A stretch of DNA of 64,000 nt from Dehalococcoidia bacterium (GCA_041653995.1 JBAZEK010000001.1:1030613-1094612), one strand, 5' to 3'. Shown: positions 30,967 to 45,612, counted from the stretch's first letter. The notes: generated by a model from the letters alone, not told the origin. A program made the numbers and translations.

Positions 30967-31038
30967 CAATCATTATCTTTGGCTTTGCCGCTCCCTTTGA
31001 CGCTCGCCCGCCCGGTTGCGGGCCGTTTTGATCTGGGT

Positions 31039-31275
31039 TTACATGATGTAGGGCGTGCGGCAGCATTTAAGTGCAACACGATGAGAACATATGGTGGGCG
31101 ATACTGGATTTGAACCAGTGACCCCCTGTGTGTAAGACAGGTAAAAACCTTTAATTGACTGGAGCTTATTGATAATCTCTAGGGAAGCCTTACGTTGTCC
31201 TGAAAGAATCATGCTCAAATAGCTTTTACTGATACCTAATTCTTTGGCTAATTGACTCTGTGTTAACTTTTTCAT
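31039..31275 (-). CDS. XRE-family HTH protein whose C-terminal codons read through the tRNA-derived att repeat
   Basis: LTQSQLAKELGISKSYLSMILSGQRK HTH; last ~20 codons (GVTGSNPVSPTI) overlie the 51-bp tRNA-Val fragment. Confidence 0.55.
   Translation of the reverse strand: MKKLTQSQLAKELGISKSYLSMILSGQRKASLEIINKLQSIKGFYLSYTQGVTGSNPVSPTICSHRVALKCCRTPYIM
31092..31142. repeat. att-site direct repeat: 51-bp copy of tRNA-Val(TAC) 3' end
   Basis: TGGTGGGCGATACTGGATTTGAACCAGTGACCCCCTGTGTGTAAGACAGGT identical to 43144..43194. Confidence 0.85.
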
Positions 31276-31530
31276 TTATTTCACCCGCCTTTTTATATCC
31301 TTTAAGCCTGCGTTTCCAATTATCGGTAAATATTGGTACGACTTCTTCTGTCTTCCTTTTGCACTAAAGTTCCCCTGTGGTTTTCTCACAAAATGACAGT
31401 CTACCTCATCAATAAGCCATCTCCGTCCAATGTAGAGTGCATTAATCCGTCCCTCTGACAAAAGCTTACGAACCCGTCTCTCAGATATACCAAGCCTTTC
31501 TGCTGCCTGTGGAACCGTAAGTAGTTTCAT
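31276..31530 (-). CDS. excisionase-family (HTH_17/MerR-like) DNA-binding protein
   Basis: 84 aa; LLTVPQAAERLGISERRVRKLLSEGRINALYIGRRWLI matches excisionase/Xis HTH pattern; adjacent to attL. Confidence 0.6.
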   Translation of the reverse strand: MKLLTVPQAAERLGISERRVRKLLSEGRINALYIGRRWLIDEVDCHFVRKPQGNFSAKGRQKKSYQYLPIIGNAGLKDIKRRVK

Positions 31531-31823
31531 TCAATTACCTTCTATCATTTTAATATTATACCGTTATCGGAATAATGTCAAGTATAATTACAAGCTAAAA
31601 TATCTTTTCTTTTTGCCGCATTTTTCCATAATACTCCGCAGAATTTTTTCAAATCGTATTTAAATTAAGTTTTAAAAGTTCAAGAATGAGGGTTTATAAT
31701 ATGCATATAAACTGGAAGCATATGGAAGGAAGCACGATAGAAAGTTAGAACGTAAGCAAGCGAGTAAGCAAGAAGGAAAGCAGGCGAGCAGGGAAGCTAT
31801 GTTGCTTTCCTTTTTTTAATTTT

Positions 31824-32057
31824 TTGATTCGGAGGTACGAAATGACTGAAAACAAGGTCAAGGAAATTAGATTGAGCAAATGCATGAATCAGAGAGAACT
31901 GGCAGAGAGAGCTCATATCTGTCAAACAGCTATTTCAGACATTGAAAGGGGGGTAAGACTACCATGGAAAGCAGCGTCTGAAAAGCTTGCTATTGCATTG
32001 GGTGTCACAATCGAGGAATTATTCCCAAACAATCTTAGGGGAGGTAAAAATTGCTAA
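31824..32057 (+). CDS. XRE-family HTH regulator
   Basis: 77 aa; MNQRELAERAHICQTAISDIERG. Confidence 0.65.
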   Translation: MIRRYEMTENKVKEIRLSKCMNQRELAERAHICQTAISDIERGVRLPWKAASEKLAIALGVTIEELFPNNLRGGKNC

Positions 32058-32398
32058 ACAAAAATAGAACGTCTTTAAAGCTGGGAAACAAGAAAGTAGG
32101 CTACTTTGAAGGTGATAAATTCATCAAACCCGTAATCGGCTCAAAGCATCTGCTGAAATTTCCTTACCAAGCTTGGGCAATTGATGCCAAAGTATTTGAC
32201 GATGAAATTAAACCTAACGCCAATTATTTTATTGTAAGAGATAGGGAGTCGGGGCTTGAATATAGTTGTACGGTAAAGGACTTCGACAATTTAAAGCGAA
32301 CCATTAACAGAGGGTATGGTAAGCAGTACAGTCTATCTCTAAAACATTGGAAAATAGCAGCTATGGAAGACGCTGAAGCTTCCAGTAACGCAACATAG
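32051..32398 (+). CDS. hypothetical protein
   Basis: 115 aa ORF on island, AT-rich codon usage consistent with neighbours. Confidence 0.4.
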   Translation: MLNKNRTSLKLGNKKVGYFEGDKFIKPVIGSKHLLKFPYQAWAIDAKVFDDEIKPNANYFIVRDRESGLEYSCTVKDFDNLKRTINRGYGKQYSLSLKHWKIAAMEDAEASSNAT

Positions 32399-32579
32399 AG
32401 TAGTGCAGCACCCGTTTTAGTAGTTGGAGGTGCTGTGTAAAAATGGTATTAGACAGAAGGAAAAGGCTGATGGAGGAGGGTATGACTCGCCATGATATTT
32501 CAGGAGCCTACTTATTTAATCAATTCAAGTGAGTTGTAATAGATGGTCATACCTATTCGATGGTCTTAAGGAGGAAAAT

Positions 32580-33026
32580 ATGATTCAGGGCATAGAAAAT
32601 TATATAAATTTAACAGATACCAAGAATGAATGGGCAAAATTTCTAAATGGCTTTGAATGGCATTGGTTCTTTACTCTCACATTTGATAAAAAGGTAAGTG
32701 ATGACTTGGCATACAAGCAATTCTTTAGGTGGAAGAATTGGATAAAGAGTTCAGTAGGACACAGAATTTTCTATCTAATTATTCCTGAGCGTCCCAAGTA
32801 TAAGGGAGATAATACTCATATTCATGGATTTCTTAATGGTGTTGAAAATGAGAAACCCTACATATGGAGAAGGAAATGGGAGGCAATGGCAGGCTTTTCT
32901 CGGATTCAACCCTATGATAGTTCAAGGGGTGCAAGCTATTATCTAGCGGATAAAATTGTATTTAAAGAAGAGGATATTTATCATAGCAAAGACCTAAATA
33001 TGATAAAGATAAATACACTCAATTAA
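32580..33026 (+). CDS. putative rolling-circle replication initiator (HUH endonuclease, Rep-like)
   Basis: ATG 32580 after AAGGAGG; motif I FFTLTF, motif II (HUH) THIHGFL, candidate motif III Y-x-x-K in ASYYLADKIVFK. Confidence 0.5.
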   Translation: MIQGIENYINLTDTKNEWAKFLNGFEWHWFFTLTFDKKVSDDLAYKQFFRWKNWIKSSVGHRIFYLIIPERPKYKGDNTHIHGFLNGVENEKPYIWRRKWEAMAGFSRIQPYDSSRGASYYLADKIVFKEEDIYHSKDLNMIKINTLN

Positions 33027-33094
33027 ATCCATTATATATATCAATATGATTATTACTACAAACATCAATATTTATTTCTTTTACTTTTACTTTT

Positions 33095-33150
33095 CCTTAT
33101 GCCCCTTTTTTATTTTTGCCCCAAATATGAATTAAATATAAATATCTACA
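33095..33150. repeat. iteron-like repeat cluster downstream of rep (GCCCCTTTTTTATTTTTGCCCC ... AAATATAAATATCTACAA)
   Basis: GGGGCAAAAA(T/G)A(A/G)AAAAAGGGG-type motif recurs inverted at ~40250..40275; AAATATAAATATCTACAA recurs at 34199..34216. Confidence 0.45.
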
Positions 33151-33231
33151 ATTAATTGCATAAAATTGGGGCATAGGGAAAAAATCACATATAAAATTCA
33201 AATAGAAAGTCAGGAGGAATCAGTAAGTAAA

Positions 33232-33858
33232 ATGAGTACAATAATTTCAAAACCTACGACAATTCAAATTAGCATGCTTGGGACACATGCCTTTTGTGAA
33301 TATAGGATATATCTTGAGCTTGTTATGGGTTTTAAAGCACGAGGTACACCAGAAATGCTTGAAGGCACAAAAGCACACTCAAGGATAAATACGATGGCTT
33401 TCTTAACGAGAGATTCAAATATTAGCATTGAGGATGCGTTGCTCCAAGCAGAGTCAGACGGAAGAGAAATAACAAAAAGGAACGTACGGGTAACAGGTAA
33501 GATACTACGTGGGAATATCGATGAAATTCACATTGGGCCAAAAGAAATTACGATTATAGATGATAAAAAATGGGCAGAGCATTATCCATCATATAAAAAT
33601 CAAGTCTTTGGCTATTGCCTTGCGTTTAAAGAACAATACAACCCAAAGCAGCCGATATACGGTGCCATAAAGAATTATCAGTCTGGAAAGGAAGTCTGGA
33701 AAAAACAATTTTCAGTTTTGGAAGAGGAATATATAAACGGCATTGTTCAAAGAATACTGGGGATAATTCGTGAGGATATCACTCCAAAACCCATTGGTGT
33801 TAGAGAAGTATGCTGGCAATGTGGATTTAAAAATTACTGCAATGTAAGGACACGATAG
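33232..33858 (+). CDS. Cas4-like/DUF83 PD-(D/E)xK nuclease with 4-Cys Fe-S site
   Basis: ATG 33232 after AGGAGG; N-terminal Cys (HAFCEY), IDEI...IIDDKK (D/ExK), QVFGY (QhxxY), C-terminal CWQCGFKNYC (CxxCx5C). Confidence 0.6.
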   Translation: MSTIISKPTTIQISMLGTHAFCEYRIYLELVMGFKARGTPEMLEGTKAHSRINTMAFLTRDSNISIEDALLQAESDGREITKRNVRVTGKILRGNIDEIHIGPKEITIIDDKKWAEHYPSYKNQVFGYCLAFKEQYNPKQPIYGAIKNYQSGKEVWKKQFSVLEEEYINGIVQRILGIIREDITPKPIGVREVCWQCGFKNYCNVRTR

Positions 33859-33895
33859 CAAAATGGTGGAAAAAGGAAAAAGAAGAAACTAACTA

Positions 33896-34159
33896 CTATA
33901 CTGCCTTGAAACCCACAATAAAGTAATTTGATTTATCAAATATAAGTCTTATCTTGTGTTCTGAATTATCCTTGCCGGCCAGGGCAATTAAGAATGATAG
34001 CTTCTTTGGATTAGTAACTGTCTTAGAAATTGGACGATGGACAATAAAACCCTCAAGTTCAATCTTCACATATCTACAGCCAGTCTTCGGATATGGCAAA
34101 TCCTTCTCTTCCACAATATCTATATATTTGCATATGGCTGAATTTGTCCTTCTTGGCAT
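33896..34159 (-). CDS. hypothetical protein
   Basis: 87 aa ORF on island; no motifs. Confidence 0.3.
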   Translation of the reverse strand: MPRRTNSAICKYIDIVEEKDLPYPKTGCRYVKIELEGFIVHRPISKTVTNPKKLSFLIALAGKDNSEHKIRLIFDKSNYFIVGFKAV

Positions 34160-34526
34160 ATTTATTTCCTTTCTTCCCTTTTCCGCTAAATTTAAACTAA
34201 ATATAAATATCTACAAATTATTATATTAAATCCACAACCAAATTTGAATATGAATGCCACAGATAAATGGCGGAAAAGAAAAAGAGTCTTAGAGATATTA
34301 TTATTTTGTATTATTTTCTTTAATAGTCAGATAGCAAGTGTGGCTAAGGGCAATTTTACCTTTAAAAATATTGAATCTGGTTGTCATTTGTCTAGTGCTT
34401 TAAAAATAGAAAACCTTCACGTGTGAGAAATGCCAGTAGCACGTGTATTAGAAGCGGCATTTTAAATAAAATCTTAGCCCAAAGTCATAGCAAATATAGA
34501 TTGTTGCATGCGTCCTTTTAATACGA

Positions 34527-34610
34527 TAGAATACGGTCAATGTAGTGAGGCTGGGGAGATGAAATATTTACTTGCTTGTTTCATAGCACTATTCGTTATA
34601 TCAGCCTGTG
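34527..34610 (+). repeat. 84-bp module (5' UTR + RBS + lipoprotein signal peptide MKYLLACFIALFVISAC) duplicated identically at 40435..40518
   Basis: exact identity of ATAGAATACGGTCAATGTAGTGAGGCTGGGGAGATGAAATATTTACTTGCTTGTTTCATAGCACTATTCGTTATATCAGCCTG; weaker similarity extends ~80 bp upstream. Confidence 0.8.
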
Positions 34611-36502
34611 CATCTCAAGTCCATGTTGGTGACCAAGCTCCAAACTTCACACTGACAGATATAAATGGTAAACGTATTAGTCTGCAAGATTTTCGTGGCA
34701 AGCAGGTTGTTCTTTATCTTTGGTTTTTATATTGTCCTGAATGTACAGAAGACCTTGCTGAGATTCAAGAGTTGAATAATAATAGTGACGAAAGAGTCAT
34801 TAAGTTCCTAACCATTAACCCAGAAAATTCATCAAAAGACGTTGCGGATTTTTTCACTAAAAATGGATATAGTTTCCCAGTTTTGTTTGATTTAGATGGA
34901 AGTATTTACAAGCAATATAATTTACGACCTCGGTCTGCACCCTACACAATAATTATTGCTCCTGATGGAAAGATTAACAATATTACAGTGGGGAATCTTC
35001 ATTATCAAGGTGGTTTAAAACGGTTAATTGGAGATAACGTAACATCCTTCAGTCCAAGTGCACAAACTCAAAAGACTCCAATAATTATCGTACCCAGTTT
35101 ACAATCTCATGGTGTCGATGAACTTGCTTATGTATCTAGCGAAACGAACACGAACTCTATATATGTCGTGAATGCAAACGGGGAATATATTGCTAACTCA
35201 TCTGGAAAAATGGATGCATTATACCATGTTAGTTGGTCGCCAAACGGAGATAAGATTATTTTTGAAGTGGTTAAAGATATCAATATAGACCAGAGAAATA
35301 TGACCCTTATTTCTTCGTCTGATATTTATTCTCTTGATATTAAAGACCATGAAGAGCGTAGACTTACTTCAAATTATCCGTATAGCAATTGTTCTCCCAC
35401 ATGGATTGAAGACGATAAAATCGTATTTTATTCAACAAGGGGAAGTTCGTATGGCAGTTTTTTACAAAATATATACATCATGAACGCAGACGGAAGTAAT
35501 CAGATAAATTTAACTAATTGTGCAGAGAATGTACCTATGGTATTAGAACCAATATTATCGCCTGACCACTTGTCTGCAGCATATATTACGGGTAAGTTAT
35601 TCGATGAAGATATATATGTGATAAACCTAGTGAATGGAAATAAATTTGAAATAGGCCATAATCCAACATTTGCACCCTGGACTTGGTGGTCTCCAAACAG
35701 TAAACAGATAGCGTATATATCTGCCTCTCTAAACGGGGGGCCTGAATCATTTTATCTCTACGATGTCGAAAAACAGAAACCGATAAAATACTATGATAGC
35801 CCTCAATCTTATTCTATTATGGAAATAGCATGGTCGCCAGACAGTAACAAAGTCGCTATTTTTGAAAAACCGCAGAGCTTGTATGTTTTAGATTGTCTGA
35901 GTTCCAAGTTTACAAAACTTGATGGGATATGTGACTGGGTAGTAGAGATGAAATGGATACCTAATAACCAACAAATAGCCATTATTGGTGACAGGTTTAC
36001 AAACAGAAACTTGTATGTAATTGATATTGGTGAGCAGAGTAAGCATAAAATCAATCCAGAGGGAACGGCAGTCGAGTCGTATCGATGGTCAACTGATAAT
36101 ACAAGAATCATTTATTGCTTAGATGATGGATATCTTTACACAACTTTCCTACCCAACTTAAATACCATAAAACTAATGCAACTTAATAAAAATACGATAA
36201 AAGGGTTAGCTTTGTCACCAGACGGTTTATTAATCGCTGTTGCTCTGAGTGACGATACTCTAACTGTAATTTCATTAAACAATAACAAGGTGTGCTTGTT
36301 AACTAATGATTATTACAATATTGGAGCAATTTCTTGGTCGCAAAACAGTAACATACTTGCATTTGAATACGGAACTTTATGGGATAGTCCGTTTGTATGC
36401 AGTAACATTCAAATCATCAATTTCGAAAACGAGGAACAGTTCATTAAATTAGATAAACCAATCTCAGGACGCTCTCCAATTTGGGCGAGAAAGGAAAAAT
36501 AA
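34559..36502 (+). CDS. exported lipoprotein: TlpA/ResA-like thioredoxin-fold domain (CPEC) + TolB-like beta-propeller
   Basis: lipobox ISAC; APNFTLTDINGKRISLQDFRGKQVVLYLWFLYCPEC redoxin; C-terminal repeated W-S-P-D/N-G/S blades (SWSPNGDKIIF, AWSPDSNKVAIF, RWSTDNTRIIY, ALSPDGLLIAV, SWSQNSNILAF). Confidence 0.75.
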   Translation: MKYLLACFIALFVISACASQVHVGDQAPNFTLTDINGKRISLQDFRGKQVVLYLWFLYCPECTEDLAEIQELNNNSDERVIKFLTINPENSSKDVADFFTKNGYSFPVLFDLDGSIYKQYNLRPRSAPYTIIIAPDGKINNITVGNLHYQGGLKRLIGDNVTSFSPSAQTQKTPIIIVPSLQSHGVDELAYVSSETNTNSIYVVNANGEYIANSSGKMDALYHVSWSPNGDKIIFEVVKDINIDQRNMTLISSSDIYSLDIKDHEERRLTSNYPYSNCSPTWIEDDKIVFYSTRGSSYGSFLQNIYIMNADGSNQINLTNCAENVPMVLEPILSPDHLSAAYITGKLFDEDIYVINLVNGNKFEIGHNPTFAPWTWWSPNSKQIAYISASLNGGPESFYLYDVEKQKPIKYYDSPQSYSIMEIAWSPDSNKVAIFEKPQSLYVLDCLSSKFTKLDGICDWVVEMKWIPNNQQIAIIGDRFTNRNLYVIDIGEQSKHKINPEGTAVESYRWSTDNTRIIYCLDDGYLYTTFLPNLNTIKLMQLNKNTIKGLALSPDGLLIAVALSDDTLTVISLNNNKVCLLTNDYYNIGAISWSQNSNILAFEYGTLWDSPFVCSNIQIINFENEEQFIKLDKPISGRSPIWARKEK

Positions 36503-36527
36503 GAAATTTCAAAAATGGAGACTGAAT

Positions 36528-36824
36528 ATGACTGGCGAATTGGGAAATTTTGTTATCGTCATGGGATTACCCTGTTTAGGAGCGCTGTTAATAGCTTTTT
36601 GTTCATTACCAACCGATAAATGGACAATAAAACACACTTTTATGTTGGTGGGAACTTCACTAATTTTTATTAGCTTTATTTTGCAAGCATATCAGATTAT
36701 TGATAAATACCCTGATAAAAATGAATATATATTTGGATGGTGGATTGTCGGTTTAGCTACCGTTATCATGGCTATAATAGGGCAAATTATTAGAATCAGA
36801 TACGGTAAAAGTTGGTTCCAATAG
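36528..36824 (+). CDS. small 3-TM membrane protein
   Basis: 98 aa hydrophobic ORF directly after lipoprotein gene. Confidence 0.4.
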   Translation: MTGELGNFVIVMGLPCLGALLIAFCSLPTDKWTIKHTFMLVGTSLIFISFILQAYQIIDKYPDKNEYIFGWWIVGLATVIMAIIGQIIRIRYGKSWFQ

Positions 36825-36920
36825 GATAATAAAATAGTGGGAAAGGAAAGAGAAGGAAATTTAATTAGCTATCTATATTTAAGATAAGAGTGACTTATAG
36901 AACTTCATTGAGGTTGGGAG

Positions 36921-37451
36921 ATGCAACAACAGTATCAATGCCCTAATTGTAGGTATCCAGTTGCTTATGGGAATAATTTCTGTGGACATTGTAGACAACA
37001 ACTAATCTGGCAACAATTAATGCCACCTTCACCACCAGTACACCATCAGCAAACACCACAAGGCATTATTGGGAAATCACACGAGCAAAACACTTCTGGA
37101 CAAGGTGGTCAATCAATAATACCCGATGAAAAGCGTATTAAACTTCCAAAACTCAATATTCGTTTCGACTTTGAGTTGTTTCAAGCAATTGAGGACAATG
37201 ACCGTAAACTGGCTGAACAGCTCAAAGCAAAATATGGGGATGATGTTTATAATTCCAATTTTTATAACCTGCTTAGTATCGAAGACGCTAACTCAGTAGA
37301 CTCACTTCATCTTAAACTAGTATCAGTTGAAAAAATGAATTTCAATGATATTTTATGCGAAAGTATCAAAATAGAGACTGAAAAAGTACGCAAAAGGATA
37401 GAGGAGCTTGAGAATATAAAAAATTTACGCAACGGGATTGAGGAAGTGTAA
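36921..37451 (+). CDS. zinc-ribbon (MQQQYQCPNC...CGHC) + coiled-coil protein
   Basis: 176 aa; N-terminal CPNC-x11-CGHC; member of the window-wide MQQxYxCPxC family. Confidence 0.55.
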   Translation: MQQQYQCPNCRYPVAYGNNFCGHCRQQLIWQQLMPPSPPVHHQQTPQGIIGKSHEQNTSGQGGQSIIPDEKRIKLPKLNIRFDFELFQAIEDNDRKLAEQLKAKYGDDVYNSNFYNLLSIEDANSVDSLHLKLVSVEKMNFNDILCESIKIETEKVRKRIEELENIKNLRNGIEEV

Positions 37452-37461
37452 GGAACTGACT

Positions 37462-37505
37462 AAACCCCTGAAACTGGCAGCTCGAGTAAGAAAAATGGCG
37501 GGAAA
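37462..37505 (+). repeat. ~44-bp intergenic repeat (AACCCCTGAAACTGGCAGCTCGAGTAAGAAAAATGGCGG), second copy 39411..39455
   Basis: ~90% identity; each sits between a stop codon and next start; in second copy ATGGCGG is the start of the HEPN-like gene. Confidence 0.6.
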
Positions 37506-37511
37506 GAAAAT

Positions 37512-39368
37512 TTGATTTATATGTTATGGGATGATACGTATCGTAAAGATGCAGCGGAGTATGAAATCTATCTGCGTATGCATCATAAAGAAAAAAACGA
37601 TTACGAGAAGCTTTTATCTAATCTTGAACGTGAGTGGTCAGAAAAATCAGTTAAAGAAGAAAACTACATATCGCTTAAAAAGGAATACACAGCGAAACTA
37701 CAGGAAACAAAGAAGTACATTTCAAAGCTGAAATTCCAGATTACAGCACTCATTAAAAAATGTAATAAAGACATAGATAAAATCGATAGCCAAATTGAAC
37801 AAATTAAATTGCGGCACAAAGTTGGTGAATATTCAGAGGAGAAACTCAAAGAACTATTATCACCATCTGAAACAGAAAGAAGGCAATTTGAATCCTTAAT
37901 AATCGAACTGAAACGCATACATGGCTTGAAATATATACCTAAACCAACTACCGATGATGTTGTATCAGAAACAGAACCGAGTCAGCCTAGAAGGTCTCCT
38001 ATCCCAACGTCATCTACTTCTATTTCAACAGCTGAAGAGCAAGCCCCCGAAATATCAGCACCAATGAGTTTTGAAGAACCGCCTCCTATTTTGGTACCTG
38101 CTGTATTTAAAAAGTCTTCACCTGTAAGAGTAAAGAAGAGTCTGTGGATTATGGCTTCGATTACTATGTTTGTAATATTAATTCTCTGTTTTGTTATTTG
38201 GAATATAGAAGTGCATAAAAAGGTAATCCCTCAGATTGGAGACCAAGCTCCAAACTTCTCTCTCCCAGATATGAATGGTAAAACGGTTAACCTTCAGGAC
38301 TTTCACGGAAAGGGTGTTGTTCTTTACCTTTGGGACACATCATGTCCTTACTGCAAAAATGACCTTAGCTGGATAAATGAATTAAATGGCTGCACCTATG
38401 ACGAAGCAATAATATTTTTAACTATTAATATCTCAGATTCACGTGGAACAGCTATTAAATATTTTGAGGAAAATGGATATAGTATTCCCGTTTTAAATGA
38501 TATGCGTGGGACGGTTATTAAGCAGTATGTAAAGTACACCTTAGGCCATACGTATCCAGATACTATTCTTATTGGTTCAAATGGCCAGATTCGTAATGTA
38601 AAAGTCGGGCCCTTCCAAAGCAAGACTGAATTAAAAACATTTATAGAATCAGGTTTAACCCCCCGTTGGGATAATACTCCTCCACAAATTTATGATATTA
38701 ATCTTTCTAAGGCCTCTATTTTGAGTTGGAAAACGGATGAGGAAACACATAGTAATATACAAGGGTTTCGTAATAGTGTCGGAGGTGCTGGAGTCACTCT
38801 TGGTGAAAATTGGACAAGATATCATAGCGTAAATGAAACAGTTTGCACTAATGGCTACTATGACCAAATTCAAATCAACTCGTATGACCGCTGCGGTAAT
38901 TCTGCTTCAAAAGTTTTTACACTGCCCAACTGCATAAATTTAGGTTGTAGAGCTCCTGATTTCACAGCAACTTCAACTAATAATCAGGATATAACGCTGT
39001 CCGCAGTACCTAGCAAAATGACTCTACTTCACTTCTGGCTACTCGGATGTGGTGCATGTGAAAAGGAACTTCCATTAATCCAAAAACTATATTATGAGCG
39101 TCCTAGAGAAGAACTTGAGATATTGGCTGTGAATGTTAGAGGTGACATATACAGCATAAATGACTTCGTTACTGCAAATGGTTATAGATTAATTATTTTA
39201 CTAGATACAGAAGGCATAATAGATGCCGCCTATCATAATCCAAGGTTCCCCACAACCTTTTTATTGGATTGCAATAAGGTAATTATTAACAAGCATGACG
39301 GTGCCTTTCAAAATTATGAAGAAATCGTTGATTTTGTAGGTCAGTATCCAAAACTTCCTGGTAAATAG
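37512..39368 (+). CDS. bitopic protein: cytoplasmic coiled-coil, one TM helix, two periplasmic TlpA-like thioredoxin-fold domains (CPYC, CGAC)
   Basis: 618 aa; TM SLWIMASITMFVILILCFVIW; APNFSLPDMNGKTVNLQDFHGKGVVLYLWDTSCPYC; second redoxin LLHFWLLGCGACEKEL. Confidence 0.7.
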   Translation: MIYMLWDDTYRKDAAEYEIYLRMHHKEKNDYEKLLSNLEREWSEKSVKEENYISLKKEYTAKLQETKKYISKLKFQITALIKKCNKDIDKIDSQIEQIKLRHKVGEYSEEKLKELLSPSETERRQFESLIIELKRIHGLKYIPKPTTDDVVSETEPSQPRRSPIPTSSTSISTAEEQAPEISAPMSFEEPPPILVPAVFKKSSPVRVKKSLWIMASITMFVILILCFVIWNIEVHKKVIPQIGDQAPNFSLPDMNGKTVNLQDFHGKGVVLYLWDTSCPYCKNDLSWINELNGCTYDEAIIFLTINISDSRGTAIKYFEENGYSIPVLNDMRGTVIKQYVKYTLGHTYPDTILIGSNGQIRNVKVGPFQSKTELKTFIESGLTPRWDNTPPQIYDINLSKASILSWKTDEETHSNIQGFRNSVGGAGVTLGENWTRYHSVNETVCTNGYYDQIQINSYDRCGNSASKVFTLPNCINLGCRAPDFTATSTNNQDITLSAVPSKMTLLHFWLLGCGACEKELPLIQKLYYERPREELEILAVNVRGDIYSINDFVTANGYRLIILLDTEGIIDAAYHNPRFPTTFLLDCNKVIINKHDGAFQNYEEIVDFVGQYPKLPGK

Positions 39369-39410
39369 ATAATTTCTTGATATTAAGAAATCGAGGTGTA
39401 CTGGTCTGAA

Positions 39411-39455
39411 CCCCTGAAACTGGACAGCTTGAGTAAGAAAAATGGCGGAAAAAGA
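39411..39455 (+). repeat. second copy of ~44-bp intergenic repeat
   Basis: AACCCCTGAAACTGGACAGCTTGAGTAAGAAAAATGGCGG. Confidence 0.6.
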
Positions 39456-39951
39456 AATGCAACAGGAGGAGCATCCCCTAAATATGGGGAAGCTACTTGT
39501 GAATTTCCAATCACTTGAGATAGCTCTCCGTCTATTTCTTTATAATGATGAAATTGCCTCTAGAGTTTCATCTCCTCAGGCGGTAAACCTAAATGCTATG
39601 AATGCGGGGGATATAGTAGCTGAAAATGCGTTCACAAACTATGATAGTCTAAGTCAACTCATTGATAAATATAATAACCATCCCAACATCATATCGACAG
39701 GTCTAACCATTGATAAGACTTTAGTGGACATACGTGATGCAATAGCTCATGGAAGAGTCGCTGGAGTCACTCCTTTGCTTGTGCCTCCTTTAAAACTAAT
39801 GAAGTTTGATAAACCAAAGAACAAAAGTGTGAAAGTAACATTTAGCGTTTTATTGACAAGGGAATGGTTCATTCTAGAGATGGCTAAGGTTCAAGATGCA
39901 GTTTTTAAAGTCTTTCAAGCTATCCAAATAATACAGAGTGCTAAGACATAA
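39442..39951 (+). CDS. hypothetical protein with HEPN-like R-x4-H motif
   Basis: 169 aa; IRDAIAHGR contains Rx4H; predicted all-alpha. Confidence 0.4.
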   Translation: MAEKEMQQEEHPLNMGKLLVNFQSLEIALRLFLYNDEIASRVSSPQAVNLNAMNAGDIVAENAFTNYDSLSQLIDKYNNHPNIISTGLTIDKTLVDIRDAIAHGRVAGVTPLLVPPLKLMKFDKPKNKSVKVTFSVLLTREWFILEMAKVQDAVFKVFQAIQIIQSAKT

Positions 39952-40434
39952 GTGGTGCCCTCTGAAATCGCTCTGAGGGGCTGAAATCAGGGTGTTGCAT
40001 ATTGAACATGACGGATTCCACCTGTCATTACTATTCCAGCTTAATTAGAGCCTTTAAAGTATTAAACAGTAAAGGTAATAACTCTACTTCCTTTCCCTTA
40101 AGCCCCTTTATTATTTCTTCGCCTAAGTTTCCGTTCAAGTGAATTATGTCGCTTTTAAGACCAACAAACGCTGGTACACCATAAACACGTTTACGTTCAA
40201 GCCAATTATGTCGTTTTGCATATATTATTTCCAGCTTAAATTAACTACAGAAAAATGGGGCAAAAAGAGAAAAAGGGGAATTATATATCAATTTATTGTC
40301 AATAATCTTTGAAATACTATTACTTCATCTGAGAGAGATGCCAGCAGCTAAGTGTAACGGCATTGAATTTTAAATAACTTCTCAGCCCAAAGTGGTAACG
40401 CATATAGGTCTATTGCATAAGTATTGTTCATATA

Positions 40435-40518
40435 ATAGAATACGGTCAATGTAGTGAGGCTGGGGAGATGAAATATTTACTTGCTTGTTTCATAGCACTA
40501 TTCGTTATATCAGCCTGC
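40435..40518 (+). repeat. second copy of 84-bp 5'UTR+signal-peptide module
   Basis: identical to 34527..34610. Confidence 0.8.
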
Positions 40519-41880
40519 ACACCAAATAACTCAATAAACAACGTTGAGACATTCCCAAAAATCGGAGATAAGATACCGAATATCTCATGGACTACTATCA
40601 ATGGCGAAAAGATTGATTTAAATCAGTTTAAAGGCAGTTGGGTGCTACTATGCTATTGGTGCTCTTGCCCTGTACATAGGAATGACATACTGACTATTCA
40701 TAATGTTTATGATTCATTATATGATAAGAATCTCGATGTCATTGTAATTAATGATACTTATGCTCAGATAGAATTAGAGGCATTTGGAAAACAAAACAAT
40801 GTACCGTTTTATTTAATTGAAGATAATCAAAAAACAATTGATAAACTTGTACCATTTGGCAACAGGCCAATATATCTCTTAATTGATGGGAGTGGGGATT
40901 TACATGCTATCGAAATAGGTACATTTCGCTCTGGCGAAAATAGCGTTAACAATGTAATCAATTTCCTTGATGATGTGATTAAGGTAAGAATCGATAATAT
41001 TACAGTCACTAATATTACTTCAAATAGGGCAACTGTGAGATGGAAAACAGATAAGGCAGTACCGTGTTGGTTGGAAATTCACCCCCAAGGTGACCCAATC
41101 GGAAAGTGCATCGGCAAGACAAATCCAAATACATTTCATGAATTGATATTAAACTGTAATCCCAACACAGCTTACACTTTTAACGTAGCTGCTAGTGGAT
41201 TAGATAATTCTTTAATTAACGATGCAAGCAATCGTAGTAGTGAATTTTCATTTCAAACATTACCAAATTGGGTTACTTCTTTATATGAGGTTGACTCTAC
41301 TAAACCAAAAATATCGAATGTTAAAGTTTCTATAATTACAGATACGAGTGCAGAGTTATATTGGGAAACTGATGTGGAAGCTCAAGTCACCGCTACAATC
41401 TGTAAATATATATCCAGTACTGATGCGCCCTTAAACTCCCAGAAAATTGATTTTATAGAAGACATATATTTTACAAAGAAACATAGCTTTACAATTAGCT
41501 CTCTTGAGCCAAGACGATTATATGACGTTGGTTTAAATGCCAAAGATAGAATGGGAAGGGTTGCCGATTACAGTGTCGAATTTTTAACACAACCTTCAAA
41601 TTATACTCACGGAGCGAAGATATCCAATATATCTTTATATGACATCACGGACAGGAGTGCTAAATTAAAATGGTCAACTGACAAGTCAGTATGGAGTTCA
41701 GCCTGCTATAAATATGAGTGCTCTTCTGGGGACATCAACACTGAGCATTCATATACACTATCCTATGGTCTGGAACCCGATACAGAATACTGGGTGCAAA
41801 TTCTAGCACATGGGGAATCGGTATCTGATGTATTCAACTTCAGAACATTAAAGACAACAGATAAGGTAGATATGAAATGA
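40468..41880 (+). CDS. exported lipoprotein: thioredoxin-fold domain (CYWCSC) + three fibronectin-III/purple-acid-phosphatase-N-like domains
   Basis: 470 aa; same signal peptide as 34559 gene; Fn3-like segments TNITSNRATVRWKTD, VSIITDTSAELYWETD, ISLYDITDRSAKLKWSTD. Confidence 0.7.
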   Translation: MKYLLACFIALFVISACTPNNSINNVETFPKIGDKIPNISWTTINGEKIDLNQFKGSWVLLCYWCSCPVHRNDILTIHNVYDSLYDKNLDVIVINDTYAQIELEAFGKQNNVPFYLIEDNQKTIDKLVPFGNRPIYLLIDGSGDLHAIEIGTFRSGENSVNNVINFLDDVIKVRIDNITVTNITSNRATVRWKTDKAVPCWLEIHPQGDPIGKCIGKTNPNTFHELILNCNPNTAYTFNVAASGLDNSLINDASNRSSEFSFQTLPNWVTSLYEVDSTKPKISNVKVSIITDTSAELYWETDVEAQVTATICKYISSTDAPLNSQKIDFIEDIYFTKKHSFTISSLEPRRLYDVGLNAKDRMGRVADYSVEFLTQPSNYTHGAKISNISLYDITDRSAKLKWSTDKSVWSSACYKYECSSGDINTEHSYTLSYGLEPDTEYWVQILAHGESVSDVFNFRTLKTTDKVDMK

Positions 41881-41907
41881 AAGAAAATCAAAAGGGAGGT
41901 AAAGAAG

Positions 41908-42084
41908 ATGGTAGCAAATAAGAAGAAGTATTATGCAGGGGAATCAGCTAAAGTCTCTGGCAAATACAACGAATGCAGATTGGGCACAGGCAAAACAGGA
42001 GTAACAGCAAATGTCAAGAAGGGGGATACACTCCCACCACATAAAATAGGAGCTCATTGGGAGTTATCAAGAAAATCTAAATAA
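41908..42084 (+). CDS. small basic protein (58 aa), hypothetical
   Basis: strong RBS AAGGGAGG 8 nt upstream; MVANKKKYYAGESAKVSGKYNECRLGTGKTG...; not in ORF track (<60 aa). Confidence 0.35.
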   Translation: MVANKKKYYAGESAKVSGKYNECRLGTGKTGVTANVKKGDTLPPHKIGAHWELSRKSK

Positions 42085-42316
42085 TATAGACATATTTAAG
42101 AAAGTGGTGACTTATAAAACTTCATGCTGTCCTGAAAGCTGAATGACCGAGTATATCTTTGCACCATAATAAAGTTCAGCCAAGGCACCGTTAAAATGTA
42201 CTACAGAATTGTTCTAAAGGGCCAAAATGGGGTATATAATATAGGGCATGACAGATTCTTCCTGCCTGAGCTTTTCAAGCTTAATTATTGAACAAATAAC
42301 TATGAAATCCTGATTG

Positions 42317-43081
42317 CTAACGAGGTAACTGATTTGAGCCGTTCACATCTTTGTAGACTTGAAGAGCATCCTCAAAGGATAAAGATTTTGAATACCTTTC
42401 AACCATAGAAATGCTTTCCCAACCGCCTAGATTTTGCACAATACGAGTGGATAACCCAGACTTAATATTGTGAATACAAAACCCTCTTCTATAGCTATGG
42501 GCGTTGGACTTAATGCCAGTTTCTTTAGACAATCGTTTAAGCATAGTTTTAATGCCAGCTCTTGATATTTCAAAACTATCATGCTCATCAAACCACTTTC
42601 CGATAACACCATTACCAGCTAAAGCCTTACGATACTTGTTACCCTTGCCCAGAATGGTTACTGTACCTTCACCCCAGTCAAAGTCTTTAGCGTGCACATT
42701 AGCACATTCACTCAGCCTTACTCCTGAGTACCATAAGAAACTAATTAATGCTCTATCACGTTCACAATGACAATGATTTATCAGAACTTCTAATTGTTCT
42801 TTTGATACCGCAGGCAATAGCTTCTTTTGAATTTTTGGGCTAGGAACTTTGTCAATAACCTTGTCGTGAATATAGCTATTGCTGTATAGCCATGAAATGA
42901 GAGTTTTGAGAGCTTGATAGAATCTTGCTTTGCCATTATGACAGGTAAGTGATTTTAGATAAGCATTAACTCCATCTGGACTTAGGGGATAACCAATAAA
43001 ATGAGTTAAAGTATATTCGTAAAATTCAATAGTTCGCTTACTACAACCATCGGGGCGAGAAGAAATAAACTTCTCCAACAA
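42317..43081 (-). CDS. tyrosine recombinase/phage-type integrase (compact XerC/D-like)
   Basis: 254 aa; N-terminal SAM-like domain, catalytic R...HSYRRGF...LGGW...Y (R-H-R-Y); adjacent to tRNA-Val target. Confidence 0.85.
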   Translation of the reverse strand: MLEKFISSRPDGCSKRTIEFYEYTLTHFIGYPLSPDGVNAYLKSLTCHNGKARFYQALKTLISWLYSNSYIHDKVIDKVPSPKIQKKLLPAVSKEQLEVLINHCHCERDRALISFLWYSGVRLSECANVHAKDFDWGEGTVTILGKGNKYRKALAGNGVIGKWFDEHDSFEISRAGIKTMLKRLSKETGIKSNAHSYRRGFCIHNIKSGLSTRIVQNLGGWESISMVERYSKSLSFEDALQVYKDVNGSNQLPR

Positions 43082-43143
43082 TTCTTTTGTGAACTTTTTG
43101 TAGCTAACTTGTGAATATTGTGAAATTGAGCTGTAGTTTTCTT

Positions 43144-43219
43144 TGGTGGGCGATACTGGATTTGAACCAGTGACCCCCTGTGTGTAAGACAGGTGCTCTA
43201 ACCGCTGAGCTAATCGCCC
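43144..43219 (-). tRNA. tRNA-Val (anticodon UAC); integration target
   Basis: rc GGGCGATTAGCTCAGCGGTTAGAGCACCTGTCTTACACACAGGGGGTCACTGGTTCAAATCCAGTATCGCCCACCA; encoded CCA. Confidence 0.9.
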
Positions 43220-43226
43220 TGGGGAG

Positions 43227-43302
43227 TGGCACGCCTGGTGGGGCTTGAACCCACGGCCTCAGCCTCCGCAGGGCTGCGCTCTATCCACTGAGCTACAGGC
43301 GC
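43227..43302 (-). tRNA. tRNA-Arg (anticodon GCG as read; G37)
   Basis: rc GCGCCTGTAGCTCAGTGGATAGAGCGCAGCCCTGCGGAGGCTGAGGCCGTGGGTTCAAGCCCCACCAGGCGTGCCA; anticodon stem CAGCC/GGCTG, loop CTGCGGA; G1·U72 wobble if ends are as drawn. Confidence 0.7.
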
Positions 43303-43308
43303 ATAAAA

Positions 43309-43395
43309 TGGTGCCGAAGGTGGGAGTTGAACCCACACATCCGTTACGGATACTACGCCCTGAACGTAGCGCGTCTGCCATTCCGCCACTTCGGC
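43309..43395 (-). tRNA. tRNA-Leu (anticodon CAG), long variable arm
   Basis: rc GCCGAAGTGGCGGAATGGCAGACGCGCTACGTTCAGGGCGTAGTATCCGTAACGGATGTGTGGGTTCAACTCCCACCTTCGGCACCA. Confidence 0.85.
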
Positions 43396-43397
43396 CC

Positions 43398-43470
43398 TGG
43401 GCAGCACAGGATTTGAACCTGTGACCCCTTGCGTGTGAAGCAAGTGCTCTAACCGCTGAGCTAGCCGCCC
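43398..43470 (-). tRNA. tRNA-Val (anticodon CAC), CCA not encoded
   Basis: rc GGGCGGCTAGCTCAGCGGTTAGAGCACTTGCTTCACACGCAAGGGGTCACAGGTTCAAATCCTGTGCTGCCCA followed by GG. Confidence 0.85.
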
Positions 43471-44586: not shown

Positions 44587-45612
44587 ATGCAGCAATGGAT
44601 AAGATGCACCAGATGCGGCGCCAATAATGCTCCCGGACAGAAATTCTGTAACGCATGCGGTACACCCCTGCCGACCGTCTGCCCCAATTGCGGAACCCCG
44701 GCAGGTCCCGGCAGCACTTTCTGCGCCAGGTGCGGCATGACATTCAGCGGTATGCCCCAGCAGACCGGATATTACCCTCCGCAGCAGCCGGGATATCCTC
44801 AGCAACCTGGCTATCCGCAGCAACCGGCATATCCGCAACAGCCGGGCTATCCTCAGCAACCGGGCTATCCTCAGCAACCGGGCTATCCGCAACAGCCGGG
44901 ATACCCGCAACAGCCTGGATATCCGCAGCAGCCCCCCGGCTACCCGCCTCAACAGACCGGCTATTATCCTCCGCAGCAGCCGGGTTATCCTCCACAGCCG
45001 GGATATCCGCAGCAACCGCCCGGTTATCCGCCGCAGCCGGGATATCCGCAACAGCCCGGCTATCCCCAGCAACCGGGATATCCGCCGGGCTATCCTCCGC
45101 AGCAGCCGCCACGCGGAGCGTATCCGCCGGGCGCAAGGCCACCCCAGCAAGGCGGCGGCAAAGGCATGCTCATATTGCTGCTGGTTGTTCTGATTGCCGG
45201 CCTGGCAGGCTTCGGTTACTGGGCTTACAGCCAGGGCTACCTCAAGGGCATACTTAACTTCGGCAGCGATAACACCACCACCTCCACAGGGAAACAGAAG
45301 GACACTGTGCCGCCCACCATCAGCGGCGTAGAAGTTAGCGCCAAGGCCATAAACGAAGTCGGCATTATCTGGAAGACGGACAAGCCATCCAGTTCTCAGG
45401 TGGAATGGGGTCCCAAGGGATCGTTCGGCAACAAGACGACACTACAGGATGACCCCGTGAGCGGTACCAGCATCGGTGTCACCGATCACGGGGTTATCGT
45501 CAAGGGATTAACGGCAAATACTGAATACCAGTACCGTGTGTTATCACATACCGACGGCAACGTTGACGCCGTATCCGCCACCAATACTTTCACGACACCT
45601 TCGGCAGATTAA
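44587..45612 (+). CDS. double zinc-ribbon – PQ-rich (PGYPQQ x ~20) – TM – Fn3-like domain protein
   Basis: 341 aa; [44 protein letters not shown]; [23 protein letters not shown]; C-terminal [17 protein letters not shown]...TEYQYRV purple-acid-phosphatase-N/Fn3-like. Confidence 0.65.

What the first reader, a model, noticed from the sequence alone, without database searches (positions are those of the whole stretch)
31092..43219. ~12-kb AT-rich integrative element inserted in tRNA-Val(TAC), bounded by perfect 51-bp att repeats
A 51-bp copy of the 3' end of tRNA-Val(TAC) (31092..31142) is identical to the real tRNA 3' end (43144..43194). A tyrosine integrase (42317..43081) abuts the intact tRNA. 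An excisionase-like HTH plus XRE regulators sit at the opposite end, and the host XRE ORF 31039..31275 reads through the tRNA fragment. The interior is visibly AT-rich with A/T-ending codons, unlike the GC-rich flanks. Cargo: a rolling-circle Rep-like HUH protein, a Cas4-like nuclease, a HEPN-motif protein, and three exported proteins carrying four thioredoxin-fold domains. That mix does not match a typical prophage, ICE or IME.
Basis: seen in the sequence. Interest (0 to 1): 0.85.

Follow-up and report, generated by a model that had tools for sequence, protein, structure and literature searches.

The report
Bacterial island with self-splitting integrase
A 12-kb mobile element sits in a valine tRNA gene of a Dehalococcoidia bacterium, and inserting there cuts its own integrase gene in two, a design that a 2021 review says occurs only in archaea.

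Summary
A perfect 51-bp copy of the 3' end of tRNA-Val(TAC) (31092-31142 = 43144-43194) bounds a 12,052-bp segment of 34-40% GC in a 48-60% GC Dehalococcoidia chromosome. The cargo calls (HUH Rep, Cas4-like nuclease, HEPN protein, three exported proteins with four thioredoxin-fold domains) hold up.

One correction matters. The "host XRE ORF" reading through the tRNA fragment is the severed N-terminus of the element's own integrase. Joining the two ends as in the excised circle gives one ATG-started 336-aa ORF: HTH domain, att-encoded linker, complete Xer-like recombinase. So attP lies inside the integrase gene, and integration splits it into Int(N) at attL and Int(C) at attR.

This is a family trait. 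About 100 non-redundant relatives in Chloroflexota assemblies abut about ten different tRNA genes. In 24 of 26 elements with both ends, the rebuilt junction restores the same HTH-linker-integrase ORF. One metagenome contig carries the unsplit gene directly behind a xis-like gene.

The architecture matches archaeal SSV-type "suicidal" integrases but uses an unrelated Xer-like (PF00589) enzyme. Myxophage Mx8 is a partial bacterial precedent, with attP at the 3' end of int. No empty site or circle junction was found, and activity is untested. Verdict: new variant of a known kind.

The parts
31092..31142 (-). attL: displaced 51-bp copy of the 3' end (positions 26-76) of tRNA-Val(TAC)
   Evidence: Exact identity to 43144..43194.
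31039..31275 (-). Int(N): the severed 5' part of the integrase gene. The ATG at 31275 and the XRE-type HTH (31143..31275) are element DNA. The ORF then reads through the att core and ends in host flank, giving a 78-aa product. NCBI annotates it as a helix-turn-helix transcriptional regulator.
   Evidence: Pfam HTH_3, E=1.2e-10. It is in frame with Int(C) in the rebuilt circle junction. Its motif LGISKSYLSMILSGQR is shared with the N-termini of 24 other rebuilt integrases and with the unsplit P0014.
31276..31530 (-). Xis-like recombination directionality factor (HTH_17). Its stop codon directly abuts the Int(N) ATG.
   Evidence: Pfam HTH_17 E=2.8e-10. PHROG excisionase families. The same xis-then-int order appears in L004. 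It is 81% identical to the xis of the related element L003.
31531..31823 (.). Divergent control region between xis-int(N) and the XRE gene
   Evidence: Promoter-like TTGACA-17-TAATAT at 31581..31553(-) and TTTAAA-18-TATAAT at 31671..31700(+), plus palindromes at 31646-31680. These are consensus matches only.
31824..32057 (+). XRE/cI-like regulator
   Evidence: Pfam HTH_3 E=5.9e-10. PHROG transcriptional repressor families.
32051..32398 (+). 115-aa protein of unknown function, shared with one other family element (L217)
   Evidence: No family hits. A BLAST cluster links it to L217.
32529..33026 (+). Small HUH-type rolling-circle Rep (likely start at 32580, 148 aa)
   Evidence: PF23343 scores 27.6 bits against a cutoff of 27.8. 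There are 470 relatives. Motif I (FTLTF), HUH (H97/H99) and YYLxxK (Y138/K142) are conserved. 56 of 60 relatives hit PF23343 and 7 hit RepSA.
33166..33858 (+). Stand-alone Cas4-like PD-(D/E)xK nuclease with four Cys
   Evidence: Pfam Cas_Cas4 30.7 bits (cutoff 22.7) and PDDEXK_1. PADLOC Cas4 E=1e-14. TIGR00372 scores 51.5, below its cutoff of 65.
33896..34159 (-). 87-aa ORF of unknown function
   Evidence: Called as a gene in the ENA contig. No family hits.
34508..36502 (+). Lipoprotein: thioredoxin-fold (AhpC/TSA, CPEC motif) domain plus beta-propeller
   Evidence: Pfam. The lipobox VISAC is seen in the translation.
36528..36824 (+). 98-aa membrane protein
   Evidence: Hydrophobic segments in the translation. 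No significant family.
36921..37451 (+). 176-aa zinc-ribbon protein
   Evidence: Weak DZR/zinc-ribbon hits.
37512..39368 (+). Membrane-anchored protein with two thioredoxin-fold domains (CPYC and CGAC motifs)
   Evidence: Pfam AhpC-TSA, two stretches, E=3.8e-38.
39442..39951 (+). HEPN-fold protein (RDAIAHGR motif)
40468..41880 (+). Lipoprotein: thioredoxin-fold domain plus fibronectin-III domains. Its signal-peptide region is 92% identical to that of 34508..36502.
   Evidence: Pfam. Repeat D5.
41908..42084 (+). 58-aa ORF (phrog_3202, unknown function)
42111..42182 (-). Vestigial fragment of an integrase C-terminus, a relic of an earlier cassette
   Evidence: tblastn with a related integrase, residues 297-320, E=1e-4. 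Homologous to duplicated relics in L003.
42317..43143 (-). Int(C): a complete Xer-like core-binding plus catalytic domain. Its only canonical start is the TTG at 43081, and the frame stays open upstream into the att core.
   Evidence: Pfam Phage_integrase E=3e-21. It covers positions 9-253 of 263 in the XerA model. Catalytic R, K, HxxR, W and Y are invariant in the family. Conserved F79/T80/L83 lie upstream of the TTG.
43144..43219 (-). attR: intact tRNA-Val(TAC). Its 3' 51 nt (43144..43194) is the att core and, in the circle, would encode integrase residues YLSYTQGVTGSNPVSPT.

Best explanation
This is a 12-kb integrative, plasmid-like element of a Dehalococcoidia bacterium. It inserted by tyrosine-recombinase site-specific recombination into the anticodon-to-3' half of tRNA-Val(TAC), restoring the tRNA with its own copy.

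Its attachment site attP lies inside the integrase gene, in the linker between an N-terminal XRE-type HTH domain and a complete Xer-like core-binding plus catalytic module. Only the excised circle encodes the full 336-aa protein, transcribed as a xis-int operon from a promoter next to a divergent XRE regulator gene.

Integration separates the gene. The promoter, xis and the HTH part (Int(N), now a 78-aa stand-alone HTH protein) stay at attL. The recombinase part (Int(C)) ends up 12 kb away at attR, behind the tRNA cluster, without its own promoter or ATG.

Shown here: the element boundaries, the gene split, its conservation across a large Chloroflexota family that uses about ten tRNA targets in both orientations, and the domain architecture.

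Inferred: integration is self-limiting. Excision would need Int(C) made from the weak TTG, a related full-length integrase supplied in trans, or a resident circle. After excision the circle would replicate by rolling circle through its small HUH Rep. The cargo (extracytoplasmic thiol-disulfide oxidoreductases, Cas4-like nuclease, HEPN protein) would be accessory.
For: **Integration signature.** The window shows a 51-bp exact direct repeat, an intact tRNA, a GC drop of about 18 points, and an integrase next to the tRNA.

**Rebuilt circle junction.** Joining 43143, the core and 31143 gives one stop-free ORF. It runs from the ATG at 31275, through the core, to the integrase stop at 42317.

**Start codon.** Int(C) has no ATG, and family-conserved residues (FTxEL) lie upstream of its only start, the TTG at 43081. 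Across 102 non-redundant relatives that abut a tRNA, 81 have no ATG, GTG or TTG between the tRNA and that motif.

**Family test.** In 26 non-redundant elements with both direct repeats (22-58 bp; elements 2.4-12 kb), the rebuilt junction gives a 324-363-aa ORF of conserved HTH, core and Int(C) in 24. Under independent genes, the chance of an in-frame, stop-free join is at most about 0.1 per element (my estimate).

**Targets.** They include Val-TAC, Val-CAC, Ala-GGC, Ala-TGC, Glu-CTC, Gly-GCC, Gly-TCC, Gly-CCC, Met-CAT and Arg-TCT, in sense and antisense orientation. Many database proteins of the family carry N-terminal translations of tRNA genes.

**Unsplit form.** JGI contig L004/L163 has xis overlapping by 4 nt a 324-aa HTH_3 plus Phage_integrase ORF (P0014). 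A 44-bp segment inside that ORF is identical to the tRNA-Glu(CTC) core of integrated relatives.

**Structure.** AlphaFold2 of P0014 gives a helical HTH (residues 3-38), a low-confidence linker (residues 33-68, pLDDT below 50) that holds the att-encoded residues, and a confident Xer-like body.

**Rep.** The HUH motifs are conserved in 470 relatives.

**Assembly.** An independent ENA assembly has the same island at attR at 99.9% identity.
Against: No empty tRNA-Val site and no circular junction of this particular element was found. The Logan contigs break at the repeat, so current mobility is unproven.

Only one clean unsplit gene was found among about 130 family loci. L039 is frameshifted. L004 could in principle be an assembler mis-join across the shared 44-bp core.

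Int(C) alone is a complete Xer-like recombinase and might be translated from the TTG at 43081. The split may therefore modulate the enzyme rather than inactivate it.

76% of Int(C) copies are still uninterrupted, which argues against rapid pseudogene decay.

The Rep sits just under the Pfam cutoff (27.6 vs 27.8). No origin was identified. No Rep relatives occur in sequenced phages or plasmids.

All data come from metagenome-assembled genomes.
Confidence: 0.82

Rival explanations
1. This is an ordinary tRNA island with two separate genes. A small XRE regulator sits at one end and an arm-less Xer-like integrase, starting at the TTG at 43081, sits at the other. The open frame across the rebuilt junction is a coincidence, helped by the fact that tRNA sequences are often stop-free in that frame.
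For: Int(C) covers the whole Xer model. A spurious tRNA-spanning ORF also exists in the host cluster at 43210..43443. For the window alone, I estimate the chance of an in-frame open join at a few percent, which is not negligible.
Against: 24 of 26 independent elements, with different tRNAs and both orientations, rebuild the same ORF. The HTH ORFs never have their own stop before the core. Conserved residues lie upstream of any start, and 81 of 102 loci lack any start codon there. An unsplit ORF exists in L004.
Confidence: 0.06
2. The split is a regulatory switch rather than a suicide. After integration the freed HTH fragment acts as a repressor of the xis-int promoter, or as an immunity factor. 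Int(C), transcribed by read-through from the tRNA operon, remains the working excisionase partner of Xis. This would parallel the integration-dependent immunity of mycobacteriophages BPs and Brujita.
For: Int(N) keeps a complete HTH and its own promoter and ATG, and stays intact in 24 of 26 elements. Int(C) is uninterrupted in 83 of 109 copies. Brujita gp33, an arm-less Xer-like integrase, is among the closest solved structures. Placement of attP inside an HTH-protein gene is documented in BPs (PMC4557955).
Against: There are no expression or binding data. No promoter-like site or good ribosome-binding site precedes the TTG. 24% of Int(C) copies are decayed.
Confidence: 0.3
3. The element is an integrated virus, for example a filamentous or membrane-vesicle ssDNA virus. 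The HUH Rep would replicate the genome, and the exported and membrane proteins would be virion or adsorption components.
For: The Rep family model PF23343 is named after the ORF2/G2P replication-associated proteins. The element has three exported or membrane proteins, a 98-aa membrane protein, and one small ORF hitting an unknown-function PHROG.
Against: No capsid, Zot-like ATPase, terminase or other structural PHROG was found. The integrase family is absent from IMG/VR, where the best match is 28% identical. The Rep has no tblastn hit in 50,697 phage records. The exported proteins are ordinary TlpA/ResA-like oxidoreductase folds.
Confidence: 0.07

Closest known systems
SSV-type (type I, "suicidal") integrases of archaeal viruses and plasmids (SSV1/2, pTN3, pT26-2)
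   Same: attP lies inside the integrase ORF near its 5' end. Integration into a tRNA gene leaves Int(N) and Int(C) at opposite ends of the element. The att identity is 40-50 bp. Close relatives switch among many tRNA targets. The carriers are small plasmid- or virus-like elements (PMC8371274, PMC7253208, compared).
   Different: The host is a bacterium (Dehalococcoidia). The enzyme is Xer-like PF00589, not Phage_integr_3 PF16795. The cut falls in an inter-domain linker, so Int(C) keeps a complete core-binding plus catalytic module. Int(N) is an XRE-type HTH. A Xis-like gene precedes int. This looks like an independent (convergent) origin.
Myxophage Mx8 IntP
   Same: It is a bacterial element whose attP lies within the int coding sequence and targets a tRNA gene, so integration changes the integrase gene (PMC6070905, PMC4383910).
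   Different: In Mx8 the site is at the 3' end and integration only swaps the C-terminal tail. Here the site is near the 5' end and removes the promoter, the start codon and an entire DNA-binding domain.
Integration-dependent immunity of mycobacteriophages BPs, Brujita and Charlie
   Same: attP lies inside the ORF of an HTH protein next to a simple Xer-like integrase, so integration changes which protein is made. Brujita gp33 (5VFZ) is among the nearest solved homologues.
   Different: There the interrupted gene is a separate repressor, truncated at its 3' end. Here the HTH is the N-terminal domain of the integrase itself.
Actinomycete integrative elements of the pSAM2 type (AICEs) and other tRNA-integrating integrative plasmids
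   Same: They are about 11-12 kb, with Int, Xis and a rolling-circle Rep, integrated at the 3' part of a tRNA gene. 7 of 60 Rep relatives also hit the RepSA model (PMC2440964).
   Different: There is no FtsK-like transfer gene and no other conjugation function. The phylum is different. The integrase gene is split.

Membership tests
tRNA-integrated genomic island (Islander-type signature) | An intact tDNA plus a co-oriented displaced tDNA fragment bracket the island | tested here: met
   tRNA-Val(TAC) at 43144..43219 and a 51-bp 3' fragment at 31092..31142, same strand.
tRNA-integrated genomic island (Islander-type signature) | A tyrosine integrase gene lies inside the interval | tested here: met
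   PF00589 E=3e-21, with catalytic R-K-HxxR-W-Y conserved.
tRNA-integrated genomic island (Islander-type signature) | An empty site in relatives, or a detectable excised circle | tested here: inconclusive
   The exact-junction scan of JGI metagenomes gave 0 hits, even for attL and attR. The other assemblies break at the repeat.
SSV-type / suicidal integrases | attP lies within the int ORF, so integration partitions the gene into Int(N) and Int(C) at the two ends | tested here: met
   The rebuilt junction gives a continuous 336-aa ORF. The same holds in 24 of 26 relatives. An unsplit gene is present in L004.
SSV-type / suicidal integrases | Sequence membership in the SSV/pTN3/pT26-2 superfamily (Pfam PF16795) | tested here: not met
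   Only PF00589 is hit. The best NCBIfam and PDB matches are XerA, XerC and XerD.
SSV-type / suicidal integrases | The split halves are inactive, so excision needs an intact copy | not testable with these tools
   Indirect only. There is no ATG or promoter for Int(C). 24% of copies are decayed and 76% are intact.
HUH rolling-circle Rep | Motif I, the HUH metal-binding motif and a catalytic Tyr motif in order | tested here: met
   FTLTF, H97-x-H99 and Y138-YLxxK142 are invariant or nearly invariant in relatives. PF23343 scores 27.6 vs a cutoff of 27.8 for this protein, and 56 of 60 relatives hit it.
HUH rolling-circle Rep | A cognate double-strand origin with a nick site | tested here: inconclusive
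   Only AT-rich imperfect inverted repeats occur near the rep 3' end, at 32970-33020 and 33106-33184. No conserved nick motif was identified.
Cas4 | A PD-(D/E)xK nuclease core with a four-Cys cluster | tested here: met
   PF01930 scores 30.7 bits (cutoff 22.7). One Cys lies near the N-terminus and CWQCGFKNYC lies at the C-terminus.
Cas4 | Association with a CRISPR-cas adaptation module; equivalog score | tested here: not met
   TIGR00372 scores 51.5 against a cutoff of 65. There are no cas genes in the element. It is a stand-alone Cas4-like nuclease.
HEPN | An Rx4-6H motif in a four-helix up-and-down fold | tested here: met
Prophage / ICE / IME | Virion and packaging genes, a type IV secretion system, or a relaxase with oriT | tested here: not met
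   No such Pfam, PHROG or PADLOC hits in any ORF.
Integration-dependent immunity (BPs/Brujita type) | attP lies inside a separate repressor gene, whose 3' truncation stabilises the repressor | tested here: not met
   Here the interrupted ORF is the integrase itself, and the HTH is its N-terminal domain.

The most novel reading that the evidence does not exclude
Dehalococcoidia host a large, previously unrecognised family of small integrative elements. Their Xer-like integrases have independently evolved the "suicidal" design thought to be unique to archaea. Only the excised circle encodes the HTH-integrase fusion. Insertion into any of about ten tRNA genes, including antisense insertions that replace the tRNA's 5' half and promoter, severs the enzyme. 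It also frees a small HTH protein that then acts as the element's integration-state sensor or repressor. The att-encoded linker makes target switching easy, because the tRNA-derived sequence only has to stay open, not fold.
Probability: 0.45. Interest if true: 0.8.

Novelty: new variant of a known kind. Interest (0 to 1): 0.68.

Why it matters
[quoted passage not shown] That review and Badel et al. 2020 use them to discuss how integrases evolve new target specificity and how elements with apparently irreversible integration persist.

A bacterial family built on an unrelated Xer-like scaffold would show that the design is convergent. It comprises about 100 non-redundant integrated copies, about ten tRNA targets and both orientations. 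It would offer a second, independent system for asking why self-splitting is advantageous.

There is also a practical consequence. The Int(N) halves are currently annotated as stand-alone transcriptional regulators and the Int(C) halves as XerC/XerD. Island finders that exclude Xer-like recombinases (Islander, PMC4383910) would miss these elements. The mobilome of Dehalococcoidia, an environmentally important and hard-to-culture class, is therefore probably under-counted.

Tried and rejected
1. **Empty site and circle.** I scanned the JGI metagenome contigs with one degenerate pattern that matches attB, attP, attL or attR of this element. It returned 0 hits. Exact-protein look-ups of flanking genes only returned the same strain, and those contigs break at the repeat.

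2. **Virus hypothesis.** The IMG/VR scan with the integrase alignment gave nothing above 28% identity. The Rep has no hit in INPHARED phages or PLSDB plasmids. Rep alignments were too divergent for locus scans.

3. **L032 and L039 as unsplit genes.** L032 is only an Int(C) ORF over-extended through an antisense tRNA-Gly. L039 has the attP-like order but is frameshifted.

4. **L003, the only other element with this Rep and Xis.** It is a decayed relative with only C-terminal integrase relics and no Int(N). The complete tRNA-Ala beside its xis end does not fit either integration geometry and stays unexplained.

5. **Defence-island reading.** PADLOC recognises only the Cas4-like protein.

6. **Literature.** Searches found no report of a bacterial N-terminally self-splitting integrase. 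They did turn up the Mx8 C-terminal precedent.


Full report
**1. Observation**

ARAGORN places tRNA-Val(tac) at 43144..43219 on the minus strand. It is the last gene of a Val(cac)-Leu(cag)-Arg(gcg)-Val(tac) cluster. Repeat finding and a pairwise alignment show that 31092..31142 is identical over 51 bp to 43144..43194, which is tRNA positions 26-76 including CCA. Identity collapses on both sides.

Every 1-kb window between 31 and 43 kb has 0.34-0.40 GC. The flanks have 0.48-0.60. The start-to-start distance of the repeats is 12,052 bp.

**2. Gene content**

Pfam, PHROGs, PADLOC and NCBIfam give the following genes:

| Coordinates | Strand | Call |
|---|---|---|
| 31276..31530 | - | HTH_17 excisionase-type protein |
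| 31824..32057 | + | XRE regulator |
| 32529..33026 | + | Small HUH Rep |
| 33166..33858 | + | Stand-alone Cas4-like nuclease |
| 34508..36502, 37512..39368, 40468..41880 | + | Three exported or membrane proteins with four AhpC/TSA-type thioredoxin folds |
| 42317..43081 | - | Tyrosine recombinase |

- **Rep.** It scores just under the PF23343 cutoff. An exhaustive search found 470 relatives. These conserve motif I (FTLTF), the HUH histidines and a YYLxxK tyrosine motif. 56 of 60 relatives hit PF23343 and 7 hit the pSAM2 RepSA model.
- **Absent functions.** No virion, packaging, conjugation or relaxase gene was detected.
- **Host.** It is a Dehalococcoidia MAG with a 1.28-Mb contig. An independent ENA assembly carries the same island at 99.9% identity.

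**3. The ORF across attL is the front half of the integrase**

Its ATG and HTH domain lie inside the element, immediately after the xis stop codon.

I rebuilt the junction that excision would create: 43143, then the 51-bp core, then 31143. Translated on the minus strand, it gives a single stop-free ORF. The sequence is MKKLTQSQLAKELGISKSYLSMILSGQRKASLEIINKLQSIKGF, then YLSYTQGVTGSNPVSPT (encoded by the tRNA-derived core), then KENYSSISQYSQVSYKKFTKEL, then LEKFISSRPDG... and on to the integrase stop. The total is 336 aa.

In the integrated state the recombinase part has no ATG at all. Its only canonical start is the TTG at 43081.

**4. Is that chance?**

For the window alone it could be. I estimate a few percent. 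The family evidence removes the doubt.

- **Database homologues.** A search with the rebuilt protein found 448 homologues at 58-88% identity, named Chloroflexota or Dehalococcoidia where named. Many have N-terminal extensions that are literal translations of tRNA genes. Some are in sense (…GAVAQLGERLPCTEEVRGSNPLSST…) and some in antisense (…LVAHTGFEPVISSLRGRCPKPLDECA…). Residues F79, T80 and L83, upstream of the window's TTG, are nearly invariant.
- **Unsplit gene.** P0014 is a single 324-aa ORF with both HTH_3 and Phage_integrase. It shares LGISKSYLSMILSG with the window's Int(N). On its contig (L004/L163) it is overlapped by 4 nt by an HTH_17 xis-like gene. This is exactly the predicted circle gene order. 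It contains a 44-bp stretch identical to the tRNA-Glu(CTC) core that forms the direct repeat of integrated relatives L011, L012 and L017. The flanks match their Int(N) and Int(C) sides.
- **More loci.** Scans of GTDB genomes and JGI metagenomes gave about 130 family loci.
- **tRNA neighbours.** 102 non-redundant Int(C) genes abut a tRNA. The targets are Val-TAC, Val-CAC, Ala-GGC, Ala-TGC, Glu-CTC, Gly-GCC, Gly-TCC, Gly-CCC, Met-CAT and Arg-TCT, in both orientations.
- **Missing starts.** In 81 of those 102 loci no ATG, GTG or TTG lies in frame between the tRNA and the conserved FT motif.
- **Rebuilt junctions.** A downstream direct repeat of 22-58 bp was found in 26 non-redundant elements of 2.4-12 kb, all AT-richer than their flanks where flank sequence was available. 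Rebuilding the junction restores an HTH-core-Int(C) ORF of 324-363 aa in 24 of them, nearly all starting at an ATG.
- **The two exceptions.** L005 has a stop just after the core. L008 has a truncated HTH. Both look like post-integration decay.

**5. Architecture of the enzyme**

Int(C) alone aligns to positions 9-253 of the 263-position XerA model. Its nearest solved structures are XerA (4A8E), XerD (1A0P) and Brujita gp33 (5VFZ). It is therefore a complete arm-less Xer-like recombinase. The catalytic R, K, HxxR, W and Y are invariant in the family.

AlphaFold2 of P0014 gives a three-helix N-terminal HTH, then a low-confidence segment (residues 33-68), then a confident two-domain body. The low-confidence segment holds the att-encoded residues.

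The att site therefore sits in a linker that needs only to remain open. This plausibly explains the easy switching between tRNA targets. The closest relative of the window's enzyme (88% identical) sits at tRNA-Val(CAC) instead of Val(TAC).

**6. Mechanism**

Shown:
- Site-specific insertion at the anticodon-to-3' half of tRNA-Val(TAC).
- Separation of the promoter, xis and Int(N) from Int(C).

Inferred:
- The full-length enzyme is made only from the circle, from a promoter-like site at 31581..31553 in a divergent control region shared with the XRE gene.
- After integration, Int(C) lacks a promoter and a good start. Integration is therefore self-limiting, and excision depends on weak Int(C) expression, on Int(N) or Xis in trans, or on a related intact integrase.
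- 83 of 109 Int(C) copies are uninterrupted and 26 are decayed. This is compatible with either a "suicide" reading or a "switch" reading.
- The small HUH Rep would replicate the excised circle.

Other family members carry AAA_25 ATPases instead of this Rep. They share only the xis-int cassette with the window. The cassette is thus a portable module. A vestigial integrase C-terminus at 42111..42182, and two such relics in the related element L003, suggest past cassette replacement.

**7. Comparison with what is known**

- **Archaeal SSV-type integrases.** The architecture matches SSV-type "suicidal" integrases. A 2021 review states that these occur exclusively in archaea and belong to a single superfamily, PF16795. 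The present family is bacterial and Xer-like, so it fails sequence membership while sharing the mechanism.
- **Mx8.** A bacterial precedent for attP inside int exists in myxophage Mx8, but at the 3' end.
- **Integration-dependent immunity.** In mycobacteriophages of the BPs type, attP lies inside a separate repressor gene.
- **Island finders.** Islander explicitly excludes Xer-like recombinases. This may be why these elements were missed.
- **Literature.** I found no paper in the held library describing this family.

**8. Limits**

- No empty site or circle junction was found for this element.
- Only one clean unsplit gene was found, and it could be an assembly mis-join across the shared core.
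- All sequences are from metagenome assemblies.
- Nothing here tests activity.

**9. Verdict**

- Novelty: new variant of a known kind.
- Interest: 0.68.

Noticed in passing
L011 9903-9981, L012 1265-1343, L017 2244-2320, L016, L204, L217, L218, L220 (family loci): Many family members insert antisense into the 5' half of a tRNA gene, for example tRNA-Glu(CTC), the first gene of a Glu-Thr-Tyr-Thr cluster. The direct repeat covers tRNA positions 1-42. The element must therefore supply the tRNA's 5' half, and presumably the promoter of the whole cluster, from within the int(C) 5' region. Targeting the 5' half is unusual for tRNA islands (my own knowledge).
   Followed up: partly
window 42111-42182 (-); L003 16302-16393 and 16927-17023: A short relic of an integrase C-terminus lies just downstream of the intact int(C). 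The related element L003 has two such relics and no intact integrase. This suggests repeated replacement or decay of the integrase cassette on the Rep/Xis backbone.
   Followed up: partly
L003 8867-17500 (ENA ERZ25039512 contig_46783): This is the only other element with this Rep (68% identical) and Xis (81% identical). It is an AT-rich ~8.5-kb segment beside a complete tRNA-Ala(TGC) at its xis end, with no direct repeat and no Int(N). This geometry fits neither the sense nor the antisense integration scheme and remains unexplained.
   Followed up: partly
window 34504-34608 vs 40413-40517; 34626-34777 vs 38236-38387: The upstream region and lipoprotein signal peptide of two thioredoxin-fold genes are 92% identical. 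The first thioredoxin domains of two genes are 70% identical. The cargo therefore expanded by duplication within the element.
   Followed up: no
window 33097-33166 and 34162-34231; 37478-37511 and 39425-39458: Repeated AT-rich ~70-nt and 34-nt sequences lie directly upstream of several cargo genes (…AAATATAAATATCTACAA…; CAGCTYGAGTAAGAAAAATGGCGG…). They are probably shared promoter or leader elements.
   Followed up: no
window 44587-45612 (+), tandem 18-bp repeats 44754-44999: A host protein has an N-terminal double zinc ribbon, a long PQQPGY repeat tract, a membrane anchor and a C-terminal fibronectin-III-like domain. The element's own 176-aa zinc-ribbon protein (36921-37451) and a protein in L003 start with a similar MQQ..C..C zinc-ribbon motif.
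   Followed up: no
window 43398-43470 vs 43144-43219: tRNA-Val(CAC), in the same cluster, is 82% identical to the target tRNA-Val(TAC). The closest relative of this integrase (88% identical: P0003/P0127, L167) sits at tRNA-Val(CAC). This is a recent target switch between neighbouring isoacceptor genes.
   Followed up: partly
window 31006-31025 (+): A GC-rich hairpin followed by a T-run (terminator-like) lies after the CNNM/CorC transporter gene 29662-30966, about 65 bp before attL. The original attB therefore lay between that terminator and the tRNA cluster.
   Followed up: no
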